Origin: the human T2T-CHM13v2.0 reference genome, Homo sapiens
Length of the DNA: 64,000 bases
Assembly (NCBI RefSeq): GCF_009914755.1
Contig: NC_060925.1
Reading direction: 5' to 3' (one strand)
In this document: one piece after another, positions 102 through 60,802 of the stretch
How the letters are laid out: the number at the start of each line of letters is the position of its first letter
Position numbering within the stretch: position 1 is the first letter of the stretch
Program-made: the position numbers and the translations under genes
Notes under the pieces: generated by a model
Told to the model about the DNA's origin: nothing
Databases searched by the model: none
What the model saw: the letters and a program-made list of their open reading frames with translations, nothing else

Positions 102-6781
<6,680 letters not shown>

Positions 6782-6816
6782 TTTGCTTTGAAGTTGTCAG
6801 TGTCCTTTCCAGAAAC

Positions 6817-6980
6817 TATTTATATTCCTGTAAGAAGCACATTTTACAATGTAAATAGTAGCATGAATAAATACTTGAGGGCAAACTGTTTATTCATAAT
6901 CTGAAAAGGATTATCAATAATAATCCTAACTGGTGAAGAACATCAAAAAGTCTCTCATGGAAATCATCTCAATGACCTCT
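6817..6980 (-). promoter_or_regulatory. Ancestral pancreatic-type amylase proximal promoter (TATAAATA) and acceptor for the salivary untranslated exon
   Basis: Mirror of 61410-61573. TATAAATA at 6817-6824(-), acceptor TTCTTACAG|G at 6827. Confidence 0.6.
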
Positions 6981-6992
6981 TAGACATTAATG

Positions 6993-7586
6993 TTTCTTTT
7001 CTTTTCTTTTTTTTTTTTTTTTGCATATGGTAGCACTTTTATTTTTCCTTACACAATGACATGTTGCTGTGGCCTAATGTTCTCACATAACAGCAGAAAA
7101 CCAAAATTTGTTGTCAACTCTTAAAAGATCGAGAATTGCATACTAAAAAACTTTACATAAATTAAAAGGATGAATACATTTACCGGTATAAATGCGAACC
7201 GCTTCCAACTCAAGGCAAGTAACAGCCCACGGTGCTCTGGTAGATAACGTAAGCTAAGAAAGGAAACTGGGTCCTATGGCTTGGACTTTCCAACCCTGAC
7301 AGACCGACAAGACGGAAACAACTGGTTCAGGAGCCCTTCCCAGCCTCTAGATAAATCTCAGAACACTCAGCCCTGACACATTAATACCCTGCACGGATCA
7401 GAGACTGCTGACCACACAGACTCACCAAGCCAGACTTGTCTTCCACAAGCACGTTTTTAGCCATGAAGTGACCAAGCCACGTGTACTAAACACTGACATC
7501 AAAGGTATGTACAGATACCAAGGGGAAGAGTTAACTTGAATGCCAGGCCAAAATCAGCAACAAGTTCTACAATCCAGTGCTGATAT
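6993..7586 (-). pseudogene. Gamma-actin processed pseudogene 3'UTR with poly(A) tail; hosts the salivary AMY1 promoter and untranslated exon
   Basis: Matches the recalled ACTG1 3'UTR (GAAGTTAAC..., GGGTATTAAtGTGTCAGGGCTGAGTG..., GTAAGGAAAAATAAAAGTGCT) followed by an A16 tail. Probable donor CCG|GTAAAT at 7184/7183. Confidence 0.92.
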
Positions 7587-8035
7587 TGAGAAGAGAGAAA
7601 GACCCTGTCCTCTTGTTTTATATTGTTTTCTATTCAGTAAAAACAACAAGGAAGCAAAATCAAAGGCACAAAACCAGGCCTGGGCCTGGTTGGCCTAAAC
7701 CCAGTAGTTACAAATCAACTTATGATTTAGAAGCCGATGTTATTCATAGATTCCAGACATTGTATAGAAGAACATTGTGAAACTCCCTTCCATATTCTGT
7801 TTCTCCCTGACCACGGGTGCATGTAGTCCTTGTCGCATATCCCTGGCTTGTTCAAATCAATCACGACCCTTTCATGTGACATCTTTAGTGTTGTGTGCCC
7901 TTAAAAGGGACAGAAATTGTGCACTTGGGGAGCTCGGATTTTGAGACAGTAGCTATCCGATGCTCCCAGGTGAATAACACCCTTCCTTCTACAACTCGGT
8001 GTCTGAGAGTTTTGTCTGCCGCTTGTCCTGCTACA
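7587..8035 (+). repeat. 5' LTR (LTR2-type)
   Basis: TGAGAAGAGAGAAAGACCC...CCTGCTACA, direct repeat of 14959-15427. Confidence 0.93.
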
Positions 8036-8040
8036 TTTCT

Positions 8041-8058
8041 TGGTTCCCTGACCTGGAA
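8041..8058 (+). promoter_or_regulatory. Primer binding site for tRNA-Glu
   Basis: TGGTTCCCTGACCTGGAA, one mismatch to the complement of the tRNA-Glu 3' end (TGGTTCCCTGACCGGGAA). Confidence 0.88.
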
Positions 8059-8384
8059 GCAAGATAACTGATGGACGGCCGAGGCAGCTCCTTAGGCAGA
8101 TTAGGCATGCCTTGTGGAGTAAGGCCGGGGCATCCCTCAGGCTGCCAGGGACTCTGGCCAGCCTGAGGGATGGGATCCAAAGAGCGCTCCCAGGTAGGAA
8201 ATGGCCCCGGTTGAACGCCTCGCCAGAGCAGTGATCCCCGCGGAGGATTAACACAGTGGCTGAACACCAGGAAGGAACTGGCACTTGGAGTCCAGACATC
8301 TGAAACTTAGTAAGACAAGTCTTTTCAACTTGCCCCACTCCACCTGAGCGGAAGCTTGGCCTGATCGCTCATGGTGTGCCTGCA

Positions 8385-9737
8385 CCCATATCAATTTCCA
8401 TATAGAGATTCCTAGTTACAGCTAGTTTTAGATCCTCTACAGTGGTAAAAGGACAGGCAGCAGCAGTAGTAGTAGCAAAGGGACATTTATTTCAGGAAAG
8501 TTCTCGCTCCACCGGCCAAGAGAAGCCAGCACCTAAAGTTCTGTTTGACCCAGAGCTCGAGGACTCAAGGCAGGAGATGGCACCAACAGTGCCCTCAACC
8601 CCTTATCCAGTGGGGAGGCCCCCTTCTCCTGAGCCCACAGCCCCTAGACCACCCAGAGTAGACAAGAACAAAAGTGAAACTGCGGGAAAATCCACTTCCC
8701 TGGCAGCCCGCTTAACGGCCCAAGACGGGAATTCAAATGCCCTGAGAGAGCAGCGATATACTAGGACAGATGAGGTCAGACATACGGTAGAAAGGCATGC
8801 TTTTGTGTATCACCCTTTTACCTCTGCTGAACTACTCAACTGGAAAAATAACACTCCATCTTACACTGAAAAGCCTCAAGCCCTAATTGACTTGCTTCAA
8901 AGAATTATCCAGACTCAGAATCCTACTTAGGCTGATTGCCACCAGCTACTCATGTACCTCTTTAAAACACATAAAAGGCAACAGGTGCTGCAGGCAACAG
9001 TTAAATGGCTGGAGGAGCACATCCCAGCCAATTATCAAAGTCCCCAAGAATACATAAGAATTCAGCTGCCAGGAACGGACCCTCAATAGGATCCAAATGA
9101 AGGACCAGATATGGAAAGGCTAAGAGGGTACCGAGAGGCATTAATTGAAAGGTTGAAAAAAGGGGCTCAAAAGGGTACCAATGTAAATAAAGTTTCTGAA
9201 GTCATCCAAGGAAAGGAGGAAAGCCCAGCCCAGTTCTATCAAAGACCGTGTGAGGCCTATTGCATGTACACTCCTTTCGATCTGGAGAGTCCTGAAAATC
9301 AGCCGTTGATTAATACGGCCTTAGTTATTCAGAGTGCAGAAGATATCCAGAGAAAATTGCAAAAACAGGCTAGGTTTGCAGGAATGAAAACCTTGCAGTT
9401 ACTGGAAAGAGCTAATGAAGTATTTGTAAATAGAGATGCAACAAGCGGCCAAGAAAGCCGTAAGGAGGGCGAACGCCAGGCCAGGTGAAACGCTAGTTTG
9501 CTGGCTGTGACAATTAGAGGAATTCTCCTGAAAAGGCAGAAAAAAGGGGGTTCTGGGAGGAATGCCCTGTCCAATCACTCACATTTGCAGCATGACTAAT
9601 GTGCCTACTGTAAAGAAATAGGACATTAGAAAGATAAATGTCCCCAACTCAAAGAAAATCAGAGTGATGCAGAGCCAAAGACCTCAAACCAAGATGAAAG
9701 GATTTTGTTCAATCTAGCTGAGGGGCTGCTAGAATTA
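8385..9737 (+). pseudogene. gag: gag remnant (N-terminus deleted, stops and frameshifts)
   Basis: YHPFTSAELLNWKNNTPSYTEKPQ, MHR-like QGKEESPAQFYQR, zinc knuckle CAYCKEIGH*KDKCP. Confidence 0.9.
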
Positions 9738-12700
9738 AGGGGAACAGGCTCAAATGCCCCCAAGGAGCCCATGGTCAGGATGACAATAAGGGGCAAGGAC
9801 ATTAAGTTTTTAGTGGATACAAGAGCCGAACACTCAGTAGTAAGCACTCCAGTGGCCCCCTCATCTATAAAGACCATTGATAGAATTAGAGCAACAGGAG
9901 TCTCTACCAAGCAGGACTTCTGTCTACCGCGCAACTGCTCAGTGGGAGGACACAAAGTGATTTATCCATTTCTGTATATGTCTGACTGTCCCTTGCCTTT
10001 GTTGAGAAGAGACTTGCTTAGCAAGTTAAGAGCCACCATTTCCTTGACAAAACAAGGCACTTTACAGCTGGAGTTGCCAGAAACAGGAGTCATCATGGCC
10101 CTTCCAGTCCCCCAGGAAGAAGAGTGGAGACTTTTGCTAACTGAGCCAGCTCAGGAAATAAAAGTGGCTCCAGCTGAGTGACGGCTCTGAGTAGAGATGG
10201 AGGACAATCCTCTGAGGCTGGCAATCAATCAAGCCCCCGTACTCATAGAAGTTTAGCCTACGACCTAGCCAATTGGACAAAAGCCGTATCCTGTTCCCAG
10301 GGAAGCCTTTAAAGGAATAGAGACTCATCTTATATGCTTAAAAGCCTCTGGAATTCTAGTTCCTTGCCAGTCTCCATGGAACACCCACCTCCTACCTGTC
10401 CCTAAACCAAGGACCAAAGACTATCGACCCGTACAGGACTTGAAAGATGCCTTCTTCACATCAGGCTAGTTCCTGAGAGCCAAAAGCTGTTTGCCTTTCA
10501 GTAGGAAGATCCGGAGTCAGATGTCACCATTCAGTACACTTAGACTCGACTTTCCCAAAGGTTCAAAAAGTCCCCCACCATCTTTGGGGAGGCCTCGGTT
10601 GGAGACCTCCAAATGTTTCCTGCTAAAGACCTAGGTTGCATCCTGCTCCAGTATGTAGATGACCTTCTGCTAGGACACTCCATGGCAGTCAGGTGTGCAA
10701 AAAGGACGGGTGCCCTGCTTCGACACCTGGAGGACTGTGGATATAAAGTGCCCAAAAAGAAAGCTCAGATCTGCAGACAGCAGGTACACTACCTAGGATT
10801 CACTATTTGAAAAGGGGAGTGCAGTCTATGGTCAGCAAGAAAGCAGGTCATCTGCAGCTTACCAGAACCTAAAACCAGGAGGCAAATAAGAGAACATTTA
10901 GGAGCTGTGAGATTTTTGCAGACTGCAGATTCCAAACTTTGTGGTGTTAGCCAAAGCATTGAATGGAGTTATAAAGGGGGTGACCGAGAGCCTTTTAAAT
11001 AGAGGTCTCTACAACAACAAGACTTATAAGTTAAAAGAAAAACTTATGTCAGCCCAAGCTGACTCTAATGTAACTCTAAGGAACACCAAAAGACACCATT
11101 GGCTAACAAATGCTACATTAACTAAACACCAAAGCTTGTTATGTGAAAATCAATGTATAACCATAGAAGTCTGTAATTCTTTAAATCCTGCCACTTTGCT
11201 CCCAGTATCAGACAGCCCTGTTAAACATAACTGTGTAGAGGTGTTGGACTATGTCTATTCTAGCAGACCAGATCTTTGAGACCAGCCATAGGCATTGGTA
11301 GATTAGGAGTTCTACATGGACAGAAGCAGCTTCATCAACCCGCAAAGAGAAAGGTGTGCAGGATATGCAGTAGTAAACTTAGATGATGTTGTTGAAGCTA
11401 AGCCATTGCCTCAGAGCACTTCAGCCCAAAAAGCAGAACTCATTCCTCTAACTCGGGCTCTGGAACTCAGTGAACCTAAGATTGTAAACATCTATACTGA
11501 TTCTTGATATGCCTTTCTAACCCTTCAAGTATGTGGAGCATTGTATAAGGAAAAAATTCTAGAGGAAAAGACATAAAATGTCAGCAAGAAATTCTACAAT
11601 GATTAGAAGCAGTGTAGAAACCCCAAAAGGTGGCATTCATGCATTGCAGGGGATATCAGCGAGTTTCCGCTTCGGTTTGCCAAGGAAAGCCCTGAGCAGA
11701 CACAGAGGCAGGAAAAGCAGCATCTACTCCTTACCAGACATCAGTCACAGCCCTGCTACTCCTTCAAATGCTTGATCTGGTGCCAACTTATTCTAAAGAG
11801 GAAAAAGAATTTTTTCAGACAGAGAGAGGACAAACAATAAAGGAAAGATACATAAAGTTACCAGATGGAAGAATAGCAGTGCCACCGCTGCTATACAGTC
11901 ATGCTGACTGTATGTGAAACTACCCATTGAGGCCAAGAATCACTTGAAAAGCTGTTAGGCCAGTATTTCTACATCTCACCCTTGCCAGCTGTTGCTACAA
12001 CAGTAGCGCAGTGATGCCTTACCTGTGGACAGCACAATGCGAAGCAAGGCCCCTCTGTACCTCGGGGAATAGAAGCCTCTGGAGCAGCTCATTTTGAAGA
12101 TCTTCAAGTGGACTTCACAGAAATGCCTAAATGTAGAAGTAACAAGTATTTACTGGTTCTAGTGTTTACTTACTCTAAGTAGGTGGAGGCTTATCCAACA
12201 TGAACTGAAAAAGCTCCTGAAGTAACCTGTGTACTTCTTCAAAATTTCATCCCTAGGTTTGGACTGCCTCTACGAATTGGCTCAAATAATAGGCCAGCAT
12301 TTGTTGCTGACTTGATACAGAAGACGGCAAAGGTATTAAGAATTTCATAGAAGTTACATGCCGTTTACCAACCTTAGAGTTCCGGAAAGTGCAGCAAATG
12401 AATCGAACTATCAGAAAAAGTTTCTGGAAAGTATGTCAAGAAACAAATTTAAAATAGACACAAGTCCTTCCTATAGTATTGTTTAAAATTAAGTGTACCC
12501 CTTCTAAGAGAACAGCATACTCCCCCTTTGAAATTCTGTATCATAGGCCTCCTCCCATACTGGGAGGGCTTCCAGGTACTCCCCAAGAGTTAGGTGAGAT
12601 TGCATTACAGCGGCAGCTACAGGCCTTAGGGAAAATTACTCAGACTATCTCAACTTGAGTAAATGAGAGGTGCCCAGGCAGCTGATTCTCCCCAGTTCAC

Positions 12701-12930
12701 CCTTTTTCTCCAGGTGACATTGTGTGGATCAAGGACTGGAACGTGGCTCCGCTGTGGCCACAGTGGAAAGGACCCCAGACAATTAACCTGACCACTCCCA
12801 CAGCTGTCAATGTAGAAGGAATCCCAGCCTAGATTCACCACAGCCTCATGAAGCCTGCAGCCGCTGAGACCTAGGAGGCCAAACCAAACTTGGACAATCC
12901 CTGAAAAGTGACCTTGAAGAAAATGACAAG
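9738..12930 (+). pseudogene. pol: pro-pol remnant (protease, RT, RNase H, integrase)
   Basis: FLVDT(R)A, SPWNT, LLQYVDDLLL (YVDD 10652-10663), TSAQKAELI...NIYTDS, LQVDFTEMP, integrase GPY/F-like tail. Many stops. Confidence 0.9.
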
Positions 12931-12980
12931 CCCTGCTCCAATCACACCACGAAGCTGACTAGACTACACATGGCCAAAGC

Positions 12981-14930
12981 ATGAGGAAAATCGTCGTAGG
13001 ACTTATTGTCCTTATAACATGGACCTGTGTGGTAAAAGCTTCCACTACCTCTTCCCACACAGAGGACTGCCTTCAGTGCATACATCAGGACACTGAAGAA
13101 GGACAAGTTAAGATGATCGTTTTATTTTACAGCTATTATGAATGCCTAAGAACTCCAAACAGAACCTGTTTGTATAATAACACCCAGTACTAAGTATGTA
13201 ATCCAGGAAGTGACCAGCCCGATGTGTGCTATGACCCCTCTAAACCCCCATGATCACAGTCTTCGAAGTAAGACTAAGAACTGGTCCTTCTCTAAGTAAC
13301 ACAAGTAAAGTGATAGCTAGAACAGAAGAAAGAAGAGTCCCCACAAATGTAACTTTAAAATTTGATGCTCGTGCCACTATTAATACTAAACAGCAGAGGA
13401 TAAGATGCATTTCTCTAAATTTGGGAAAAATTACACACAGAAAATAAGTACATCTGTCAAGAACCATATTTATGTTCGATGTGTCAATAGTGGTATTGCG
13501 TCAGTTAGGCTACTTAGAAGAAAGATAAAAAAGATCCTGTTTGGCTCCAAAAAAGAAAAGTCAGCCCCTCTTGCACAAGTGGGAGCTGCAACCCTTTAAA
13601 ATTGATCATCACAAACCCCTCAGATCCAAAGTGGAATAAAAGAAAATATATAACATTAGGCATTGATAGAAAAGGACTAGATTCTAGTGTAAGCATCCTG
13701 ATAAAAGAAGAAGTTCAAAAACGCTCACCAGGACAAGTATTTCACACTTTCTATGATGAATTCAATGTGCCTATACCTGAAATTTCTGAAAAAAACTAAA
13801 AATTTGTTTTTGCAATTAGCCAAACATGTAGCCCAGTCTCTACAAGTCATTTCATGTGATGTTTGTGGAAGGACTGTAACAGGAGATCAATGGCCATAAG
13901 AAGCCCAAGAATTAGTTCCTACAGATGGAGTTCCTCACGAATTCCATCCCAAAAGAACAACCCCGACAATTTTTAGTTTCTAAAAGTCACAATTATTAGA
14001 CAGTAATGCGTAGCTAGAGAAAGAAAAGGATTTACTCATCCCGTAAGGCGGCTTATTTGTCTTAGGCAAAACCTGTATAATGGTGCCACAAAAACAGTTA
14101 CATGGTACAGTTCCAATTACACAGAAAGAAATGCATTCAGCAAATTTCCAAAGTTGCAGACTGTTTAGGCCCATCCAGAATTCCACCAGGACTGGACGGC
14201 CCCCACTAGGTTATGCTAGATATGTAGACACAAAGCTTATGCTAAGCTGCCTGACCAGTGGGCGTGTGGCTGTGTAATTGGCACCATGAAGCCATCTTTC
14301 TTCTTACTGCCCATAAAAACAGTTGAACTTGTAGGCTTCCCAGTCTATGCTTCCCAGGCAAAATGAAGCATAGCCATAAGTGGTTAGAAAGATGATGAAT
14401 GCACCCCTGAAAGAATCATACAATACTATGGACCCGCCACTTAAGTACAAGATGGCTCATGAGGATATCCAACCCCTATCTACATGCTCATATGGTTACA
14501 AGCTGCTTTAGAAATTATTACTAATAAAACCCAACAAGCCTTGACTGTTCTTGCCTGGCGAGAGAATCTGACGAAACATGTTGCCTACACATAGATGATA
14601 AAGAACAAGTAGTTGAGCATATACTTAAGGATATAACAAAACTGGCACATGTACTCGTGCAAGGCTGGCACAGACTCAATCCAGGAGCCATGTTTAGAAA
14701 GTAGTTCCCAGCAATAGGAGGATTTAAAACTCTTATAATAGAGGTAATAATAGTAATAGGAACCTGCTTACTGCTCCCTTGTCTGATACCTGTGTTTCTC
14801 CAAATCATAAAAAACTTCGTCTCTCCCTTATTTCACCAAAAGCCTTCAGCACAAGCATACAATATAAATGGCTATCAATCTATTGCACAGAAGAACATAA
14901 ATCATAAAAGTGACAGCTCCCACTAATAAA
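12981..14930 (+). pseudogene. env: env remnant
   Basis: Signal peptide MRKIVVGLIVLITWTC, CxxC, TM CCLHIDD, hydrophobic anchor VIIVIGTCLLLPCL. Many stops. Confidence 0.85.
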
Positions 14931-14958
14931 AATGAGTGAAAGTCTCAAAGAAAGAAAA

Positions 14959-15427
14959 TGAGAGAGGAGAAAGACCCTCTCCTCTTGTTTTACATTGTTT
15001 TCTATTCAGTAAAAACAACAAGGAAATAAAACCAAAGACAGGCAGCCCGGCGCCAGGCCCAAAAACAGACCTGGGCCTGGTTGGCCTAAACCCAGTAGTT
15101 GAACATCCACTTATGATTTAGAAGCCGATGTGATTCACAGATTCCAGATATTGTGTAGAAGAACATTGTGAAACTCTCTTCCATATTCTGTTTCTCCCTG
15201 ACCACCGGGGCAAGTAGTCCTTGTCATGTATACCTCGCTTGCTCAAATCAATCACAAAGCTTTCATGTGAAATCTTTAGTGTTGTGAGCCCTTAAAAAGG
15301 ACAGAAATTGTGCACTCCAGGAGCTCAGATTTAGAGACAGTAGCTGGCTAATGCTCCCAGCTGAATAAAGCCCTTCCTTCTACAACTCAGTGTCTGAGAG
15401 GTTTTTTCTGCGGCTCGTCCTGCTACA
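14959..15427 (+). repeat. 3' LTR (LTR2-type), preceded by a purine tract at 14947-14958
   Basis: TGAGAGAGGAGAAAGACCC...CCTGCTACA, AATAAA at 15364-15369. Confidence 0.93.
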
Positions 15428-52961: not shown

Positions 52962-55900
52962 TGTAGCAGGACGAGCCGCAGAAAAAACCTCTCAGACACT
53001 GAGTTGTAGAAGGAAGGGCTTTATTCAGCTGGGAGCATTAGCCAGCTACTGTCTCTAAATCTGAGCTCCTGGAGTGCACAATTTCTGTCCTTTTTAAGGG
53101 CTCACAACACTAAAGATTTCACATGAAAGCTTTGTGATTGATTTGAGCAAGCGAGGTATACATGACAAGGACTACTTGCCCCGGTGGTCAGGGAGAAACA
53201 GAATATGGAAGAGAGTTTCACAATGTTCTTCTACACAATATCTGGAATCTGTGAATCACATCGGCTTCTAAATCATAAGTGGATGTTCAACTACTGGGTT
53301 TAGGCCAACCAGGCCCAGGTCTGTTTTTGGGCCTGGAGCCGGGCTGCCTGTCTTTGGTTTTATTTCCTTGTTGTTTTTACTGAATAGAAAACAATGTAAA
53401 ACAAGAGGAGAGGGTCTTTCTCCTCTCTCATTTTCTTTCTTTGAGACTTTCACTCATTTTTATTAGTGGGAGCTGTCACTTTTATGATTTATGTTCTTCT
53501 GTGCAATAGATTGATAGCCATTTATATTGTATGCTTGTGCTGAAGGCTTTTGGTGAAATAAGGGAGAGACGAAGTTTTTTATGATTTGGAGAAACACAGG
53601 TATCAGACAAGGGAGCAGTAAGCAGGTTCCTATTACTATTATTACCTCTATTATAAGAGTTTTAAATCCTCCTATTGCTGGGAACTACTTTCTAAACATG
53701 GCTCCTGGATTGAGTCTGTGCCAGCCTTGCACGAGTACATGTGCCAGTTTTGTTATATCCTTAAGTATATGCTCAACTACTTGTTCTTTATCATCTATGT
53801 GTAGGCAACATGTTTCGTCAGATTCTCTCGCCAGGCAAGAACAGTCAAGGCTTGTTGGGTTTTATTAGTAATAATTTCTAAAGCAGCTTGTAACCATATG
53901 AGCATGTAGATAGGGGTTGGATATCCTCATGAGCCATCTTGTACTTAAGTGGCGGGTCCATAGTATTGTATGATTCTTTCAGGGGTGCATTCATCATCTT
54001 TCTAACCACTTATGGCTATGCTTCATTTTGCCTGGGAAGCATAGACTGGGAAGCCTACAAGTTCAACTGTTTTTATGGGCAGTAAGAAGAAAGATGGCTT
54101 CATGGTGCCAATTACACAGCCACACGCCCACTGGTCAGGCAGCTTAGCATAAGCTTTGTGTCTACATATCTAGCATAACCTAGTGGGGGCCGTCCAGTCC
54201 TGGTGGAATTCTGGATGGGCCTAAACAGTCTGCAACTTTGGAAATTTGCTGAATGCATTTCTTTCTGTGTAATTGGAACTGTACCATGTAACTGTTTTTG
54301 TGGCACCATTATACAGGTTTTGCCTAAGACAAATAAGCCGCCTTACGGGATGAGTAAATCCTTTTCTTTCTCTAGCTACGCATTACTGTCTAATAATTGT
54401 GACTTTTAGAAACTAAAAATTGTCGGGGTTGTTCTTTTGGGATGGAATTCGTGAGGAACTCCATCTGTAGGAACTAATTCTTGGGCTTCTTATGGCCATT
54501 GATCTCCTGTTACAGTCCTTCCACAAACATCACATGAAATGACTTGTAGAGACTGGGCTACATGTTTGGCTAATTGCAAAAACAAATTTTTAGTTTTTTT
54601 CAGAAATTTCAGGTATAGGCACATTGAATTCATCATAGAAAGTGTGAAATACTTGTCCTGGTGAGCGTTTTTGAACTTCTTCTTTTATCAGGATGCTTAC
54701 ACTAGAATCTAGTCCTTTTCTATCAATGCCTAATGTTATATATTTTCTTTTATTCCACTTTGGATCTGAGGGGTTTGTGATGATCAATTTTAAAGGGTTG
54801 CAGCTCCCACTTGTGCAAGAGGGGCTGACTTTTCTTTTTTGGAGCCAAACAGGATCTTTTTTATCTTTCTTCTAAGTAGCCTAACTGACGCAATACCACT
54901 ATTGACACATCGAACATAAATATGGTTCTTGACAGATGTACTTATTTTCTGTGTGTAATTTTTCCCAAATTTAGAGAAATGCATCTTATCCTCTGCTGTT
55001 TAGTATTAATAGTGGCACGAGCATCAAATTTTAAAGTTACATTTGTGGGGACTCTTCTTTCTTCTGTTCTAGCTATCACTTTACTTGTGTTACTTAGAGA
55101 AGGACCAGTTCTTAGTCTTACTTCGAAGACTGTGATCATGGGGGTTTAGAGGGGTCATAGCACACATCGGGCTGGTCACTTCCTGGATTACATACTTAGT
55201 ACTGGGTGTTATTATACAAACAGGTTCTGTTTGGAGTTCTTAGGCATTCATAATAGCTGTAAAATAAAACGATCATCTTAACTTGTCCTTCTTCAGTGTC
55301 CTGATGTATGCACTGAAGGCAGTCCTCTGTGTGGGAAGAGGTAGTGGAAGCTTTTACCACACAGGTCCATGTTATAAGGACAATAAGTCCTACGACGATT
55401 TTCCTCATGCTTTGGCCATGTGTAGTCTAGTCAGCTTCGTGGTGTGATTGGAGCAGGGCTTGTCATTTTCTTCAAGGTCACTTTTCAGGGATTGTCCAAG
55501 TTTGGTTTGGCCTCCTAGGTCTCAGCGGCTGCAGGCTTCATGAGGCTGTGGTGAATCTAGGCTGGGATTCCTTCTACATTGACAGCTGTGGGAGTGGTCA
55601 GGTTAATTGTCTGGGGTCCTTTCCACTGTGGCCACAGCGGAGCCACGTTCCAGTCCTTGATCCACACAATGTCACCTGGAGAAAAAGGGTGAACTGGGGA
55701 GAATCAGCTGCCTGGGCACCTCTCATTTACTCAAGTTGAGATAGTCTGAGTAATTTTCCCTAAGGCCTGTAGCTGCCGCTGTAATGCAATCTCACCTAAC
55801 TCTTGGGGAGTACCTGGAAGCCCTCCCAGTATGGGAGGAGGCCTATGATACAGAATTTCAAAGGGGGAGTATGCTGTTCTCTTAGAAGGGGTACACTTAA

Positions 55901-58900
55901 TTTTAAACAATACTATAGGAAGGACTTGTGTCTATTTTAAATTTGTTTCTTGACATACTTTCCAGAAACTTTTTCTGATAGTTCGATTCATTTGCTGCAC
56001 TTTCCGGAACTCTAAGGTTGGTAAACGGCATGTAACTTCTATGAAATTCTTAATACCTTTGCCGTCTTCTGTATCAAGTCAGCAACAAATGCTGGCCTAT
56101 TATTTGAGCCAATTCGTAGAGGCAGTCCAAACCTAGGGATGAAATTTTGAAGAAGTACACAGGTTACTTCAGGAGCTTTTTCAGTTCATGTTGGATAAGC
56201 CTCCACCTACTTAGAGTAAGTAAACACTAGAACCAGTAAATACTTGTTACTTCTACATTTAGGCATTTCTGTGAAGTCCACTTGAAGATCTTCAAAATGA
56301 GCTGCTCCAGAGGCTTCTATTCCCCGAGGTACAGAGGGGCCTTGCTTCGCATTGTGCTGTCCACAGGTAAGGCATCACTGCGCTACTGTTGTAGCAACAG
56401 CTGGCAAGGGTGAGATGTAGAAATACTGGCCTAACAGCTTTTCAAGTGATTCTTGGCCTCAATGGGTAGTTTCACATACAGTCAGCATGACTGTATAGCA
56501 GCGGTGGCACTGCTATTCTTCCATCTGGTAACTTTATGTATCTTTCCTTTATTGTTTGTCCTCTCTCTGTCTGAAAAAATTCTTTTTCCTCTTTAGAATA
56601 AGTTGGCACCAGATCAAGCATTTGAAGGAGTAGCAGGGCTGTGACTGATGTCTGGTAAGGAGTAGATGCTGCTTTTCCTGCCTCTGTGTCTGCTCAGGGC
56701 TTTCCTTGGCAAACCGAAGCGGAAACTCGCTGATATCCCCTGCAATGCATGAATGCCACCTTTTGGGGTTTCTACACTGCTTCTAATCATTGTAGAATTT
56801 CTTGCTGACATTTTATGTCTTTTCCTCTAGAATTTTTTCCTTATACAATGCTCCACATACTTGAAGGGTTAGAAAGGCATATCAAGAATCAGTATAGATG
56901 TTTACAATCTTAGGTTCACTGAGTTCCAGAGCCCGAGTTAGAGGAATGAGTTCTGCTTTTTGGGCTGAAGTGCTCTGAGGCAATGGCTTAGCTTCAACAA
57001 CATCATCTAAGTTTACTACTGCATATCCTGCACACCTTTCTCTTTGCGGGTTGATGAAGCTGCTTCTGTCCATGTAGAACTCCTAATCTACCAATGCCTA
57101 TGGCTGGTCTCAAAGATCTGGTCTGCTAGAATAGACATAGTCCAACACCTCTACACAGTTATGTTTAACAGGGCTGTCTGATACTGGGAGCAAAGTGGCA
57201 GGATTTAAAGAATTACAGACTTCTATGGTTATACATTGATTTTCACATAACAAGCTTTGGTGTTTAGTTAATGTAGCATTTGTTAGCCAATGGTGTCTTT
57301 TGGTGTTCCTTAGAGTTACATTAGAGTCAGCTTGGGCTGACATAAGTTTTTCTTTTAACTTATAAGTCTTGTTGTTGTAGAGACCTCTATTTAAAAGGCT
57401 CTCGGTCACCCCCTTTATAACTCCATTCAATGCTTTGGCTAACACCACAAAGTTTGGAATCTGCAGTCTGCAAAAATCTCACAGCTCCTAAATGTTCTCT
57501 TATTTGCCTCCTGGTTTTAGGTTCTGGTAAGCTGCAGATGACCTGCTTTCTTGCTGACCATAGACTGCACTCCCCTTTTCAAATAGTGAATCCTAGGTAG
57601 TGTACCTGCTGTCTGCAGATCTGAGCTTTCTTTTTGGGCACTTTATATCCACAGTCCTCCAGGTGTCGAAGCAGGGCACCCGTCCTTTTTGCACACCTGA
57701 CTGCCATGGAGTGTCCTAGCAGAAGGTCATCTACATACTGGAGCAGGATGCAACCTAGGTCTTTAGCAGGAAACATTTGGAGGTCTCCAACCGAGGCCTC
57801 CCCAAAGATGGTGGGGGACTTTTTGAACCTTTGGGAAAGTCGAGTCTAAGTGTACTGAATGGTGACATCTGACTCCGGATCTTCCTACTGAAAGGCAAAC
57901 AGCTTTTGGCTCTCAGGAACTAGCCTGATGTGAAGAAGGCATCTTTCAAGTCCTGTACGGGTCGATAGTCTTTGGTCCTTGGTTTAGGGACAGGTAGGAG
58001 GTGGGTGTTCCATGGAGACTGGCAAGGAACTAGAATTCCAGAGGCTTTTAAGCATATAAGATGAGTCTCTATTCCTTTAAAGGCTTCCCTGGGAACAGGA
58101 TACGGCTTTTGTCCAATTGGCTAGGTCGTAGGCTAAACTTCTATGAGTACGGGGGCTTGATTGATTGCCAGCCTCAGAGGATTGTCCTCCATCTCTACTC
58201 AGAGCCGTCACTCAGCTGGAGCCACTTTTATTTCCTGAGCTGGCTCAGTTAGCAAAAGTCTCCACTCTTCTTCCTGGGGGACTGGAAGGGCCATGATGAC
58301 TCCTGTTTCTGGCAACTCCAGCTGTAAAGTGCCTTGTTTTGTCAAGGAAATGGTGGCTCTTAACTTGCTAAGCAAGTCTCTTCTCAACAAAGGCAAGGGA
58401 CAGTCAGACATATACAGAAATGGATAAATCACTTTGTGTCCTCCCACTGAGCAGTTGCGCGGTAGACAGAAGTCCTGCTTGGTAGAGACTCCTGTTGCTC
58501 TAATTCTATCAATGGTCTTTATAGATGAGGGGGCCACTGGAGTGCTTACTACTGAGTGTTCGGCTCTTGTATCCACTAAAAACTTAATGTCCTTGCCCCT
58601 TATTGTCATCCTGACCATGGGCTCCTTGGGGGCATTTGAGCCTGTTCCCCTTAATTCTAGCAGCCCCTCAGCTAGATTGAACAAAATCCTTTCATCTTGG
58701 TTTGAGGTCTTTGGCTCTGCATCACTCTGATTTTCTTTGAGTTGGGGACATTTATCTTTCTAATGTCCTATTTCTTTACAGTAGGCACATTAGTCATGCT
58801 GCAAATGTGAGTGATTGGACAGGGCATTCCTCCCAGAACCCCCTTTTTTCTGCCTTTTCAGGAGAATTCCTCTAATTGTCACAGCCAGCAAACTAGCGTT

Positions 58901-60802
58901 TCACCTGGCCTGGCGTTCGCCCTCCTTACGGCTTTCTTGGCCGCTTGTTGCATCTCTATTTACAAATACTTCATTAGCTCTTTCCAGTAACTGCAAGGTT
59001 TTCATTCCTGCAAACCTAGCCTGTTTTTGCAATTTTCTCTGGATATCTTCTGCACTCTGAATAACTAAGGCCGTATTAATCAACGGCTGATTTTCAGGAC
59101 TCTCCAGATCGAAAGGAGTGTACATGCAATAGGCCTCACACGGTCTTTGATAGAACTGGGCTGGGCTTTCCTCCTTTCCTTGGATGACTTCAGAAACTTT
59201 ATTTACATTGGTACCCTTTTGAGCCCCTTTTTTCAACCTTTCAATTAATGCCTCTCGGTACCCTCTTAGCCTTTCCATATCTGGTCCTTCATTTGGATCC
59301 TATTGAGGGTCCGTTCCTGGCAGCTGAATTCTTATGTATTCTTGGGGACTTTGATAATTGGCTGGGATGTGCTCCTCCAGCCATTTAACTGTTGCCTGCA
59401 GCACCTGTTGCCTTTTATGTGTTTTAAAGAGGTACATGAGTAGCTGGTGGCAATCAGCCTAAGTAGGATTCTGAGTCTGGATAATTCTTTGAAGCAAGTC
59501 AATTAGGGCTTGAGGCTTTTCAGTGTAAGATGGAGTGTTATTTTTCCAGTTGAGTAGTTCAGCAGAGGTAAAAGGGTGATACACAAAAGCATGCCTTTCT
59601 ACCGTATGTCTGACCTCATCTGTCCTAGTATATCGCTGCTCTCTCAGGGCATTTGAATTCCCGTCTTGGGCCGTTAAGCGGGCTGCCAGGGAAGTGGATT
59701 TTCCCGCAGTTTCACTTTTGTTCTTGTCTACTCTGGGTGGTCTAGGGGCTGTGGGCTCAGGAGAAGGGGGCCTCCCCACTGGATAAGGGGTTGAGGGCAC
59801 TGTTGGTGCCATCTCCTGCCTTGAGTCCTCGAGCTCTGGGTCAAACAGAACTTTAGGTGCTGGCTTCTCTTGGCCGGTGGAGCGAGAACTTTCCTGAAAT
59901 AAATGTCCCTTTGCTACTACTACTGCTGCTGCCTGTCCTTTTACCACTGTAGAGGATCTAAAACTAGCTGTAACTAGGAATCTCTATATGGAAATTGATA
60001 TGGGTGCAGGCACACCATGAGCGATCAGGCCAAGCTTCCGCTCAGGTGGAGTGGGGCAAGTTGAAAAGACTTGTCTTACTAAGTTTCAGATGTCTGGACT
60101 CCAAGTGCCAGTTCCTTCCTGGTGTTCAGCCACTGTGTTAATCCTCCGCGGGGATCACTGCTCTGGCGAGGCGTTCAACCGGGGCCATTTCCTACCTGGG
60201 AGCGCTCTTTGGATCCCATCCCTCAGGCTGGCCAGAGTCCCTGGCAGCCTGAGGGATGCCCCGGCCTTACTCCACAAGGCATGCCTAATCTGCCTAAGGA
60301 GCTGCCTCGGCCGTCCATCAGTTATCTTGCTTCCAGGTCAGGGAACCAAGAAATGTAGCAGGACAAGTGGCAGACAAAACTCTCAGACACCGAGTTGTAG
60401 AAGGAAGGGTGTTATTCACCTGGGAGCATCGGATAGCTACTGTCTCAAAATCCGAGCTCCCCAAGTGCACAATTTCTGTCCCTTTTAAGGGCACACAGCA
60501 CTAAAGATGTCACATGAAAGGGTCGTGATTGATTTGAACAAGCCAGGGATATGCGACAAGGACTACATGCACCCGTGGTCAGGGAGAAACAGAATATGGA
60601 AGGGAGTTTCACAATGTTCTTCTATACAATGTCTGGAATCTATGAATAACATCGGCTTCTAAATCATAAGTTGATTTGTAACTACTGGGTTTAGGCCAAC
60701 CAGGCCCAGGCCTGGTTTTGTGCCTTTGATTTTGCTTCCTTGTTGTTTTTACTGAATAGAAAACAATATAAAACAAGAGGACAGGGTCTTTCTCTCTTCT
60801 CA
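52962..60802 (-). mobile_element. HERV-E provirus, second copy (3' LTR 52962-53430, env about 53459-55408, pro-pol about 55459-58651, gag about 58652-60004, PBS 60331-60348, 5' LTR 60354-60802)
   Basis: Reverse complement of 7587-15427 with the same integration site and TSD, so duplicated rather than independently inserted. Confidence 0.95.

What the first reader, a model, noticed from the sequence alone, without database searches (positions are those of the whole stretch)
8300..14958. The amylase HERV-E provirus looks APOBEC3G-hypermutated (GG->AG), possibly dead on arrival
Seen: in-frame stops sit where gammaretroviral proteins have Trp. TAG occurs at 8413 (DS*LQL), 8928 (NPT*ADC), 9087 (DPQ*DPN), 9627 (zinc knuckle GH*KD), 10502 (FQ*ED), 10541 (QYT*TRL), 11289, 11304, 12180 (*VEAYPT), 12348 (*KLH), 12455, 12830 (PA*IH), 12872, 14385 and 14702; TAA occurs at 13897 and 14442. 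Conserved Gly residues read as Arg: protease DTG->DTR (9816-9824), RT LPQG->LSQR, RNase H DGSS->DRSS, integrase SDNGPAF->SNNRPAF (12282-12302). Knowledge: TGG->TAG and GGN->AGN on the viral plus strand are the APOBEC3G signature and cannot arise from CpG decay. Inference: the genome was edited during reverse transcription, so the element co-opted for salivary amylase expression may have been non-coding from the start, and its regulatory sequence may contain edited bases. Several Trp codons remain intact. I cannot tell whether this is already reported for this locus.
Basis: partly seen in the sequence, partly recalled or inferred. Interest (0 to 1): 0.8.

Follow-up and report, generated by a model that had tools for sequence, protein, structure and literature searches.

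The report
APOBEC3G-edited amylase HERV-E provirus
The retrovirus remnant that sits upstream of the human salivary amylase genes carries the mutation pattern left by the host enzyme APOBEC3G, so it was most likely already a dead virus when it entered the genome.

Summary
All 17 listed stops and both checked motif readings are at the stated coordinates, and each stop aligns with TGG in at least 2 of 5 other HERV-E copies.

I built no consensus. I compared the provirus (7587-15427, + strand) with other copies pairwise and by triplet parsimony.
- Changes private to the amylase copy: GG>AG 32/187, against 34/744 at other non-CpG G and 17/308 for the opposite-strand equivalent CC>CT.
- A Hypermut-style test against four references gives OR 4.8-5.5 on the plus strand and 1.0-1.2 on the minus strand.
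- GGC is spared: 4/44 against 60/184 for GGA/GGG/GGT.
- Hits rise weakly from 5' to 3' and are near absent in the LTRs.
- TGG gave TAG 11 times and TGA once.
- 15 of 17 copies in one test and 4 control copies in another lack the pattern.

Twelve of the 17 stops are also stops in a chrY copy, and some recur in three more relatives. The sharing pattern fits independent hits at the same hot spots. An already edited ancestor is not excluded.

Editing of the regulatory LTR and leader is not supported. This is a new member of a known kind. Primate orthologues could not be checked.

The parts
7587..8035 (+). 5' LTR of the HERV-E provirus. It starts TG and ends CA. An alternative AMY1B first exon (7426-7595, minus strand, hub annotation) ends 9 bases inside it.
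   Evidence: blastn of the two LTRs, 85.3% over 470 columns; 88.6% over aligned bases; ends and flanks. GG>AG hits 0/5.
8036..14958 (+). Internal proviral region holding gag-pro-pol-env remnants. It is A-rich and GG-poor on the plus strand. This is the region that carries the GG>AG excess.
   Evidence: GG 325 against CC 456; (AG/GG)/(CT/CC) is 1.94 here and 1.17-1.35 in four control copies; TGG:TAG is 95:112 here and about 165:100 in controls. Searches give the context tests.
8413..14704 (+). All align with TGG in at least 2 of 5 other copies.
8904..9425 (+). Gag p30 (capsid) remnant
   Evidence: PF02093, E=1.2e-27, stops read as X.
9762..10040 (+). Protease remnant. The active-site triplet reads DTR at 9816-9824.
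   Evidence: PF00077, E=1.1e-9.
10439..10807 (+). Reverse transcriptase remnant, C-terminal part of the domain only. YVDD is at 10652-10663 and LSQR at 10550-10561.
   Evidence: PF00078, E=4.6e-12.
11307..11606 (+). RNase H remnant. DRSS is at 11319-11330.
   Evidence: PF00075, E=3.4e-11.
12102..12374 (+). Integrase core remnant. SNNRPAF is at 12282-12302. A weak zf-H2C2 match lies upstream at 11919-12026, and MLVIN_C lies at 12698-12859 in another frame.
   Evidence: PF00665 E=4.6e-11; PF09337 24.1 bits, below its 25-bit cut-off; PF18697 E=3.2e-15.
14959..15427 (+). 3' LTR
   Evidence: GG>AG hits 1/8.
52962..60802 (-). Second copy of the same provirus, upstream of AMY1C. It differs at 3 of 7841 bases and belongs to the recent AMY1 segmental duplication.
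   Evidence: One search finds 7 copies at about 100% identity in the amylase cluster of this genome.

Best explanation
The provirus at 7587-15427 is a gammaretrovirus-like HERV-E. Its minus-strand DNA was deaminated by an APOBEC3G-type enzyme, one that prefers CC on the minus strand (GG on the plus strand), during the reverse transcription that preceded integration.

Shown here: a plus-strand-only GG>AG excess that spares GGC, rises weakly towards the 3' end, is near absent from the LTRs, and turns Trp codons into TAG far more often than TGA.

Inferred: this enzyme acts on single-stranded DNA made during reverse transcription, so the edits predate integration. With a dozen or more premature stops in gag, pol and env, the genome could not have encoded a virus when it arrived ('dead on arrival'). 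About 19% of the surveyed GG sites are hit above background, which is roughly 49 of 258.

The stops it shares with related copies are best read as independent hits at the same hot spots in separately edited proviruses of one heavily attacked HERV-E sub-lineage. The later enhancer role for AMY1 is taken from the literature and does not appear to depend on edited bases in the LTR.
For: 1. Context. Triplet parsimony for changes private to the amylase copy gives GG>AG 32/187 against other non-CpG G>A 34/744 (OR 4.3, p=6e-8). With two other outgroups the counts are 32/166 and 32/169. With columns near gaps removed it is 31/173 against CC>CT 15/283.
2. Strand. CC>CT is 17/308 (OR 3.5, p=4e-5). Pairwise Hypermut-like tests against 4 references give plus-strand GGD 35-42% against control 10-12% (OR 4.8-5.5, p 1e-21 to 1e-27) and minus-strand OR 1.0-1.2. 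The reverse change AG>GG sits at background, 1.7-3.7%.
3. Position +2. GGC is hit at 4/44 and GGA/G/T at 60/184 (p=0.0013). TGGG is hit at 7/10.
4. Gradient. GG sites hit per bin of about 1 kb from 5' to 3': 21, 17, 26, 25, 32, 46, 35%. LTRs: 0/5 and 1/8. 5' half 24%, 3' half 33%, p=0.011. C>T shows no gradient.
5. Codons. 11 TAG against 1 TGA arose from TGG.
6. Specificity. Four other full copies used as the focal copy give OR 0.6-2.5 against other G contexts and 0.8-3.4 against CC>CT; one of 12 control triplets (L034) reached p about 0.015 on both. In 9800-14300, only the amylase copy (42/99 against 20/114) and the chrY copy stand out among 17 copies.
7. Independence of shared hits. 39 GG sites are hit in both the amylase and chrY copies. 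A model of position, context and ordinary shared ancestry expects 31-34.5 (P=0.07-0.22). In env, the pattern of hits across five relatives fits independence (P=0.35). GG>AG is more homoplastic than other changes: 16/29 against 27/90 (p=0.025). The stem of the sub-lineage is not enriched (1/47).
8. The enzyme assignment rests on passages of Perez-Caballero 2008 (PMC2564838), which describe APOBEC3G as the only known mutator preferring GG>AG, Trp-to-stop changes, and 5'-to-3' gradients in endogenous primate gammaretroviruses.
Against: - Overall strand asymmetry outside GG is weak: private non-CpG G>A 66/931 against C>T 56/1049, p=0.11.
- The gradient in the amylase copy is modest, and the changes private to it are flat along the genome.
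- Twelve of 17 stops are also stops in the chrY copy. One env stop is shared by all five sub-lineage copies and another by four of the five. Observed sharing (39) is above every expectation computed (26-34.5). One relative (L043) has no private GG hits against 2.4 expected. So some edits may be inherited rather than made in the last cycle.
- Timing was not tested directly. No orthologue from another primate was available. The only older paralogue, the solo LTR L036, covers the LTR alone, where no GG>AG is seen.
- Env frames have no Pfam support.
- All references are themselves decayed copies. Sites were polarised by agreement among a few copies, not by a reconstructed ancestor.
Confidence: 0.8

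Rival explanations
1. The edits and stops were inherited. An already hypermutated, non-coding HERV-E genome was copied several times, either packaged by helper virus or retrotransposed without env. The amylase provirus is one of its descendants. It would still have been non-coding on arrival, but not edited in its own last cycle.
For: - 12 of 17 stops are also stops in the chrY copy.
- Stop 14385 is shared by all five sub-lineage copies and 14442 by four of the five.
- Changes shared by the amylase and chrY copies only are enriched in GG>AG: 34/241 against 31/710 at other G and 17/300 at CC.
- Observed sharing (39) exceeds the expectations of 26-34.5.
- L043 has 0 private GG hits against 2.4 expected.
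Against: - It needs three editing events, since both terminal branches are also enriched: 12.0% and 12.4% of GG against about 4-6% elsewhere. Independent editing needs only two.
- The env hit patterns fit independence (P=0.35). They are also homoplastic beyond other changes.
- The sub-lineage stem has 1/47 GG hits.
- The chrY LTRs are 94.4% identical and the amylase LTRs 88.6%, so the two integrations are far apart in time.
- No further close relative turned up. The best non-amylase hits are 86-87% identical.
Confidence: 0.2
2. Ordinary decay after integration (CpG deamination plus neutral substitution over some 25-40 million years) produced the stops. The apparent pattern comes from picking out Trp codons.
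For: - The provirus is old: the LTRs are 88.6% identical, and Le Dantec 2015 lists 11.9% divergence and 40 My (PMC4379568, table seen).
- Transversions are also high.
- It has four private deletions and 18 in-frame TGA or TAA stops, only 1 of which (a TGA) aligns with TGG in most reference copies.
Against: - CpG sites were excluded and the GG>AG excess remains at 3-5 fold on one strand only.
- Four control copies and 15 of 17 copies in the mid region lack it.
- Changes private to single LTRs, which arose after integration, show no GG preference: 3 of 13 G>A are in GG.
- A reference-free dinucleotide ratio separates the copy from controls.
Confidence: 0.03
3. Another mutator made the G>A changes: a GA-preferring APOBEC3 (3F, 3D or 3H), or reverse-transcriptase error under nucleotide-pool imbalance.
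For: The Hypermut-like test gives a small GA-context signal on the plus strand (OR 1.6-1.9, p 1e-2 to 1e-4). The chrY copy shows raised G>A outside GG (7.4-8.2%).
Against: In the changes private to the amylase copy, GA (14/283), GC (11/242) and GT (9/219) are alike, and only GG is raised (32/187). The GA signal uses the query's context, so GG pairs edited at both bases are counted as GA.
Confidence: 0.05

Closest known systems
APOBEC3G-hypermutated endogenous primate gammaretroviruses: CERV1/PtERV1 and CERV2 of chimpanzee, RhERV of macaque (Perez-Caballero, Soll and Bieniasz 2008, PMC2564838; passages read)
   Same: Class I, gammaretrovirus-like proviruses. Plus-strand GG>AG bias after CpG removal. 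Stops made at Trp codons. A 5'-to-3' gradient in some proviruses. The burden differs between individual copies.
   Different: Those families are absent from the human genome, are younger, and were scored against family consensus sequences. This one is a human HERV-E locus, older, and scored without a consensus. It is also a locus with a reported host regulatory role.
Hypermutated HERV-K(HML-2) proviruses in the human genome (Lee, Malim and Bieniasz 2008; Armitage et al. 2008). I saw these only as citations and one sentence in PMC4335370; I did not read the papers.
   Same: Fixed human proviruses that carry an APOBEC3G footprint.
   Different: They are betaretrovirus-like (class II) and much younger. 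By that review's sentence, 'at least two' such loci are reported, and no host function is tied to them.
Genome-wide screens for DNA-edited LTR retrotransposons (Knisbacher and Levanon 2016, PMC4866542, passages read; Carmi et al. 2011 and Anwar et al. 2013 seen as citations only)
   Same: They report GG or GA motif editing of primate ERV1 and ERVK elements, 44 'ultra-edited' elements in human, and the idea that editing may speed exaptation.
   Different: I could not see their element lists: the supplements were not readable and Anwar 2013 is not held. The amylase HERV-E may or may not already be in those tables. The main text holds no 'HERVE', 'HERV-E' or 'LTR2'.

Membership tests
APOBEC3G-hypermutated provirus | G>A enriched at GG dinucleotides relative to other G contexts, with CpG excluded | tested here: met
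   32/187 against 34/744, OR 4.3, p=6e-8. Gap-padded: GG>AG 31/173 against other non-CpG G>A 32/692. 71/258 against 64/729 when hits shared with the chrY copy are included.
APOBEC3G-hypermutated provirus | Confined to the viral plus strand (GG>AG exceeds CC>CT) | tested here: met
   32/187 against 17/308. Plus-strand OR 4.8-5.5 and minus-strand OR 1.0-1.2 against four references. Outside GG there is no asymmetry: 66/931 against 56/1049, p=0.11.
APOBEC3G-hypermutated provirus | The base at +2 is not C. This is the GRD pattern used by Hypermut, recalled and not taken from any call. | tested here: met
   GGC 4/44 against GGA/G/T 60/184, p=0.0013.
APOBEC3G-hypermutated provirus | Editing rises from 5' to 3' towards the polypurine tract and is low in the LTRs | tested here: met
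   24% in the 5' half and 33% in the 3' half, p=0.011. LTRs 0/5 and 1/8. C>T shows no gradient. The effect is weak in this copy and strong in the chrY copy (20% to 42%, p=4e-6).
APOBEC3G-hypermutated provirus | Trp codons become TAG rather than TGA | tested here: met
   11 TAG against 1 TGA from TGG in gag-pol (p=0.006).
APOBEC3G-hypermutated provirus | The edits belong to this provirus's own replication cycle and were not inherited from a master copy | tested here: inconclusive
   5 of 17 stops are unique among the five full-length copies; one of them (10541) is also TAG in 1 of the 22 mid-region loci. The other 12 are shared with the chrY copy. The private branch is still enriched. Sharing fits independence but lies above every expectation.
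APOBEC3G-hypermutated provirus | The edits were present at integration, so orthologues in other catarrhines share them | not testable with these tools
   Only this human genome is held. The older paralogous solo LTR (L036, with both flanks matching) covers the LTR only.
HERV-E (class I, gammaretrovirus-like ERV) | LTR-gag-pro-pol-env layout with gammaretroviral domains, and closest DNA relatives that are HERV-E copies | tested here: met
   Pfam domains: Gag_p30, RVP, RVT_1, RNase_H, rve, MLVIN_C. LTR pair with TG..CA ends. The locus is listed as HERV-E-AMY1B, 7837 bp, in Le Dantec 2015 (PMC4379568). Env has no Pfam match.
HERV-E (class I, gammaretrovirus-like ERV) | Primer-binding site complementary to tRNA-Glu | not tested
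   I read the sequence after the 5' LTR but did not compare it with a tRNA. I used no tRNA sequence from memory.

The most novel reading that the evidence does not exclude
The amylase provirus was lethally edited in the same infection cycle that placed it in the germ line. On this reading, one of the textbook co-opted retroviruses never encoded a virus in its host.

It also belongs to a HERV-E sub-lineage in which every sampled member (5 of 5 in env) was edited, apparently independently and at the same Trp hot spots. That would make APOBEC3G a main force in ending that lineage.
Probability: 0.5. Interest if true: 0.55.

Novelty: new member of a known kind. Interest (0 to 1): 0.42.

Why it matters
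The amylase HERV-E is a standard example of a retrovirus recruited for host gene regulation (Ting 1992, as cited in PMC5462908, and PMC4379568). If it arrived already inactivated by APOBEC3G, two things follow. It adds a gammaretrovirus-like human locus to the short list of hypermutated human proviruses. It also shows that a lethally edited genome can still supply a working enhancer.

The data do not support the more attractive idea that editing created the regulatory sequence. The LTRs and the leader carry almost no GG>AG.

I found no report of this for HERV-E or for this locus. The evidence for that is four full-text searches and the HERV-E review, whose text holds no 'apobec' or 'hypermut'. 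Element tables of the genome-wide editing screens could not be read and may already list it.

Tried and rejected
I replaced it with pairwise tests, triplet tests and site filters requiring agreement among reference copies.
I used five full copies, 22 pol-env loci, seven LTRs and three env fragments instead. The reference set is therefore small, and only the best-scoring candidates of each genome search were scored (40 of 330, 40 of 1265, 40 of 268).
- LTR test for edits that predate integration: the 12 changes shared by both amylase LTRs and the paralogous solo LTR include 0 G>A and 7 C>T. This gives no information on GG editing, because the LTRs have few GG sites.
- Pfam on env in all three frames gave 0 families, and the 5' gag region gave only a weak Gag_p30 edge. 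Env frames remain unconfirmed.
- I considered a hypermutated common ancestor of the amylase and chrY copies and did not adopt it as the main reading.
- I considered a GA-context enzyme and rejected it for the private changes.
- Papers not obtainable: Anwar 2013, Samuelson 1990, the supplements of Knisbacher 2016. Ting 1992 and Carmi 2011 were not looked up and were seen as citations only.
- I did not map the parotid enhancer fragment onto the window.
Full report
**What is there**

The window holds two nearly identical copies of one HERV-E provirus. One is at 7587-15427 on the + strand, head to head with AMY1B. The other is at 52962-60802 on the - strand, upstream of AMY1C, and differs at 3 of 7841 bases. 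This genome has seven such copies in the amylase cluster.

The LTRs are 7587-8035 and 14959-15427, with TG..CA ends. They are 85.3% identical over 470 aligned columns and 88.6% over aligned bases. With every stop read as X, Pfam finds these domains in the order expected of a gammaretrovirus: Gag_p30, RVP, RVT_1, RNase_H, a weak zf-H2C2, rve and MLVIN_C. Env gives no Pfam match in any frame.

Compared with five other full copies, this one lacks about 415-474 bases after 8382, about 108 after 10435, 209 after 11055 and about 82 after 14578.

The HERV-E review of Le Dantec et al. 2015 lists the locus as HERV-E-AMY1B: 7837 bp, LTR divergence 11.9%, 40 My (PMC4379568, table passage). Its text contains no 'apobec' or 'hypermut'.

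**The observation**

LSQR and DRSS are at 10550-10561 and 11319-11330.
- Each of the 17 stops aligns with TGG in at least 2 of 5 full copies.
- At the ten stops between 10502 and 13897, 15-20 of 22 further loci read TGG.
- The motif Arg codons are AGN where most copies have GGN.
- In 1365 gag-pol codons there are 35 in-frame stops: 17 TAG, 13 TGA, 5 TAA. Eleven of the TAG but only one of the TGA align with TGG in at least 3 of 4 references.
- Of 17 codons that are TGG in three references, 6 are TAG here, 1 is TGA, 7 are intact and 3 are something else. Against a 4.6% background, 6 of 17 gives p=7.5e-5.

**Method**

I used four approaches:
- pairwise comparison with natural copies;
- triplets, where a change counts as private to one copy when two others agree;
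- site filters that require agreement among three or six copies;
- reference-free dinucleotide counts.

The nearest non-amylase relatives are only 84-87% identical. The closest full copy is on contig C24, which is chrY by its length (locus L031, the same copy as L008), at 86.7%.

**The signature**

- Context and strand. Changes private to the amylase copy: GG>AG 32/187 (17%); other non-CpG G>A 34/744 (4.6%); CC>CT, the same change on the other strand, 17/308 (5.5%); other C>T 39/741. Two other outgroups give the same picture. Dropping columns within 5 of a gap changes little (31/173 against 15/283), and the reverse change AG>GG is at background.
- Hypermut-style test. Against each of four references the plus strand gives GGD 35-42% against 10-12% control (OR 4.8-5.5). 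The minus strand gives OR 1.0-1.2. Of the 24 control comparisons among the four references, the strongest has p=0.045.
- Extended context. GGC is spared (4/44 against 60/184) and TGGG is hit 7 times in 10.
- Position. GG sites hit rise from about 21% near gag to 35-46% in env, and are 0/5 and 1/8 in the LTRs. The trend is modest (p=0.011) and absent for C>T.
- Without any reference. The internal region has GG 325 against CC 456. Its product-to-substrate ratio is 1.94, against 1.17-1.35 in four controls.
- GA, GC and GT contexts are alike in the private changes. The footprint is therefore that of a CC-preferring enzyme. Per Perez-Caballero et al. 2008 (PMC2564838), APOBEC3G is the only known mutator with this preference.
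- Outside GG there is no strand asymmetry (66/931 against 56/1049, p=0.11).

**Is it special to this copy?**

Partly.
- The four other full copies show no enrichment when used as the focal copy, and the chrY copy does.
- In 9800-14300, measured against sites unanimous in six copies, the amylase copy (42/99 against 20/114) and the chrY copy (47/108 against 22/127) stand out among 17 copies.
- A search with env found three more relatives at 84-87%, on C12, C1 and C5. In env, all five members of this sub-lineage have raised GG>AG: 20, 25, 14, 10 and 9 of 47, against 8-14% at other G and 4.5-7.4% for C>T.

**Shared stops**

Twelve of the 17 stops are also stops in the chrY copy. Three pol stops recur in a group of 95-97% identical copies on other chromosomes. 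The env stop at 14385 is shared by all five sub-lineage copies, and the one at 14442 by four of the five.

In favour of recurrence:
- Both terminal branches are enriched as well as the shared class: 12.0%, 12.4% and 14.1% of GG sites. Inheritance therefore needs three editing events, where independence needs two.
- A model with position, context and the ordinary shared branch expects 31-34.5 joint hits against 39 seen (P=0.07-0.22).
- In env, the 32-pattern distribution over five copies fits full independence (P=0.35).
- GG>AG sites conflict with the tree more often than other changes: 16/29 against 27/90 (p=0.025).
- The sub-lineage stem carries 1/47.
- The chrY LTRs are 94.4% identical against 88.6% here, so the two integrations are well separated in time.

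In favour of inheritance:
- Observed sharing is above every expectation computed.
- One relative has no private hits.
- One env stop is present in all five copies and another in four of them.

I put independent recurrent hits at roughly two to one over an edited master copy. Under either reading the genome was non-coding when it integrated.

**Timing and the regulatory claim**

That the edits predate integration follows from the enzyme's mode of action. It was not tested, because no other primate genome is held.

A solo LTR at C1:103465136-103465602 has both flanks matching those of the provirus (80 and 92 of 100). It therefore descends from the same integration. I take it to be the AMY2A-type solo LTR of Samuelson 1990, which I recall but could not read. 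It shares 12 derived states with both amylase LTRs: none is G>A and seven are C>T.

The LTRs and the leader 8036-8600 carry 0/5, 1/8 and 3/25 GG hits. I therefore see no support for edited bases in the region next to AMY1B. I could not place the published enhancer fragment, because I had no access to the paper that gives its coordinates.

**Novelty**

APOBEC3G footprints are known in:
- endogenous primate gammaretroviruses (PMC2564838);
- two or more HERV-K(HML-2) loci (one sentence in PMC4335370);
- genome-wide screens, which report 44 ultra-edited human elements (PMC4866542).

Four searches found no paper that reports it for HERV-E or for the amylase locus. The element tables of the screens were not readable. 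This is a new member of a known kind, at a well-known locus.

Noticed in passing
L031 (G000:C24:17737285-17747284; provirus about 582-9802 of the locus): The closest full-length relative, on chrY, is itself GG>AG hypermutated: 27/180 against CC>CT 17/313. Its 5'-to-3' gradient is steeper (20% to 42%, p=4e-6), and it also has raised G>A outside GG (7.4-8.2%). Its LTRs are 94.4% identical, so it is younger than the amylase provirus.
   Followed up: partly
L043 (C12:9599807-9601833), L044 (C1:28429353-28431564), L045 (C5:140054073-140056151): Three env-bearing HERV-E copies did not appear in the pol search. They are 86-87% identical to the amylase env over aligned bases and also show raised GG>AG: 14, 10 and 9 of 47. 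The whole sub-lineage looks edited. Only the env stretches of these copies were fetched.
   Followed up: partly
L036 (G000:C1:103465036-103465702), about 261 kb before the window: A solo LTR inside the amylase cluster has both flanks matching the flanks of the AMY1 provirus. It is 89.7% identical to each amylase LTR. It is a remnant of the same integration in an older paralogue, probably AMY2A (that name is recalled, not checked).
   Followed up: yes
window 7587-8035 and 14959-15427, LTR alignment columns 119-272: Seven of the 12 changes shared by both amylase LTRs and the solo LTR are plus-strand C>T, and five of them lie within about 40 columns. No G>A is shared. This could be a subfamily difference or a small cluster of plus-strand deamination. 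It remains unexplained.
   Followed up: no
L025, L027-L030 (C11, C7, C4 and, further places on C8, C12, C13, C10, C19): A group of HERV-E copies 95-97% identical to each other share TAG at three of the same pol Trp positions (11289, 11304, 12180, all followed by G). They look like segmental duplicates of one provirus, and they show that these positions are hit recurrently.
   Followed up: partly
window 7426-7595 (minus strand): By the hub annotation, an alternative AMY1B first exon starts 9 bases inside the 5' LTR. That transcript's start therefore lies at the LTR edge, antisense to the provirus.
   Followed up: no
window 11734-12580 (minus strand) and 55809-56655 (plus strand): The predicted lncRNAs LOC105378878 and LOC124905670 (hub annotation) lie wholly inside pol of the two proviruses, antisense to the viral genes.
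   Followed up: no
window 8382, 10435, 11055, 14578: The amylase copy has four deletions that none of the five compared copies share: about 415-474, 108, 209 and 82 bases. They remove part of the leader/gag, RT, the RT-RNase H junction and the env end.
   Followed up: yes
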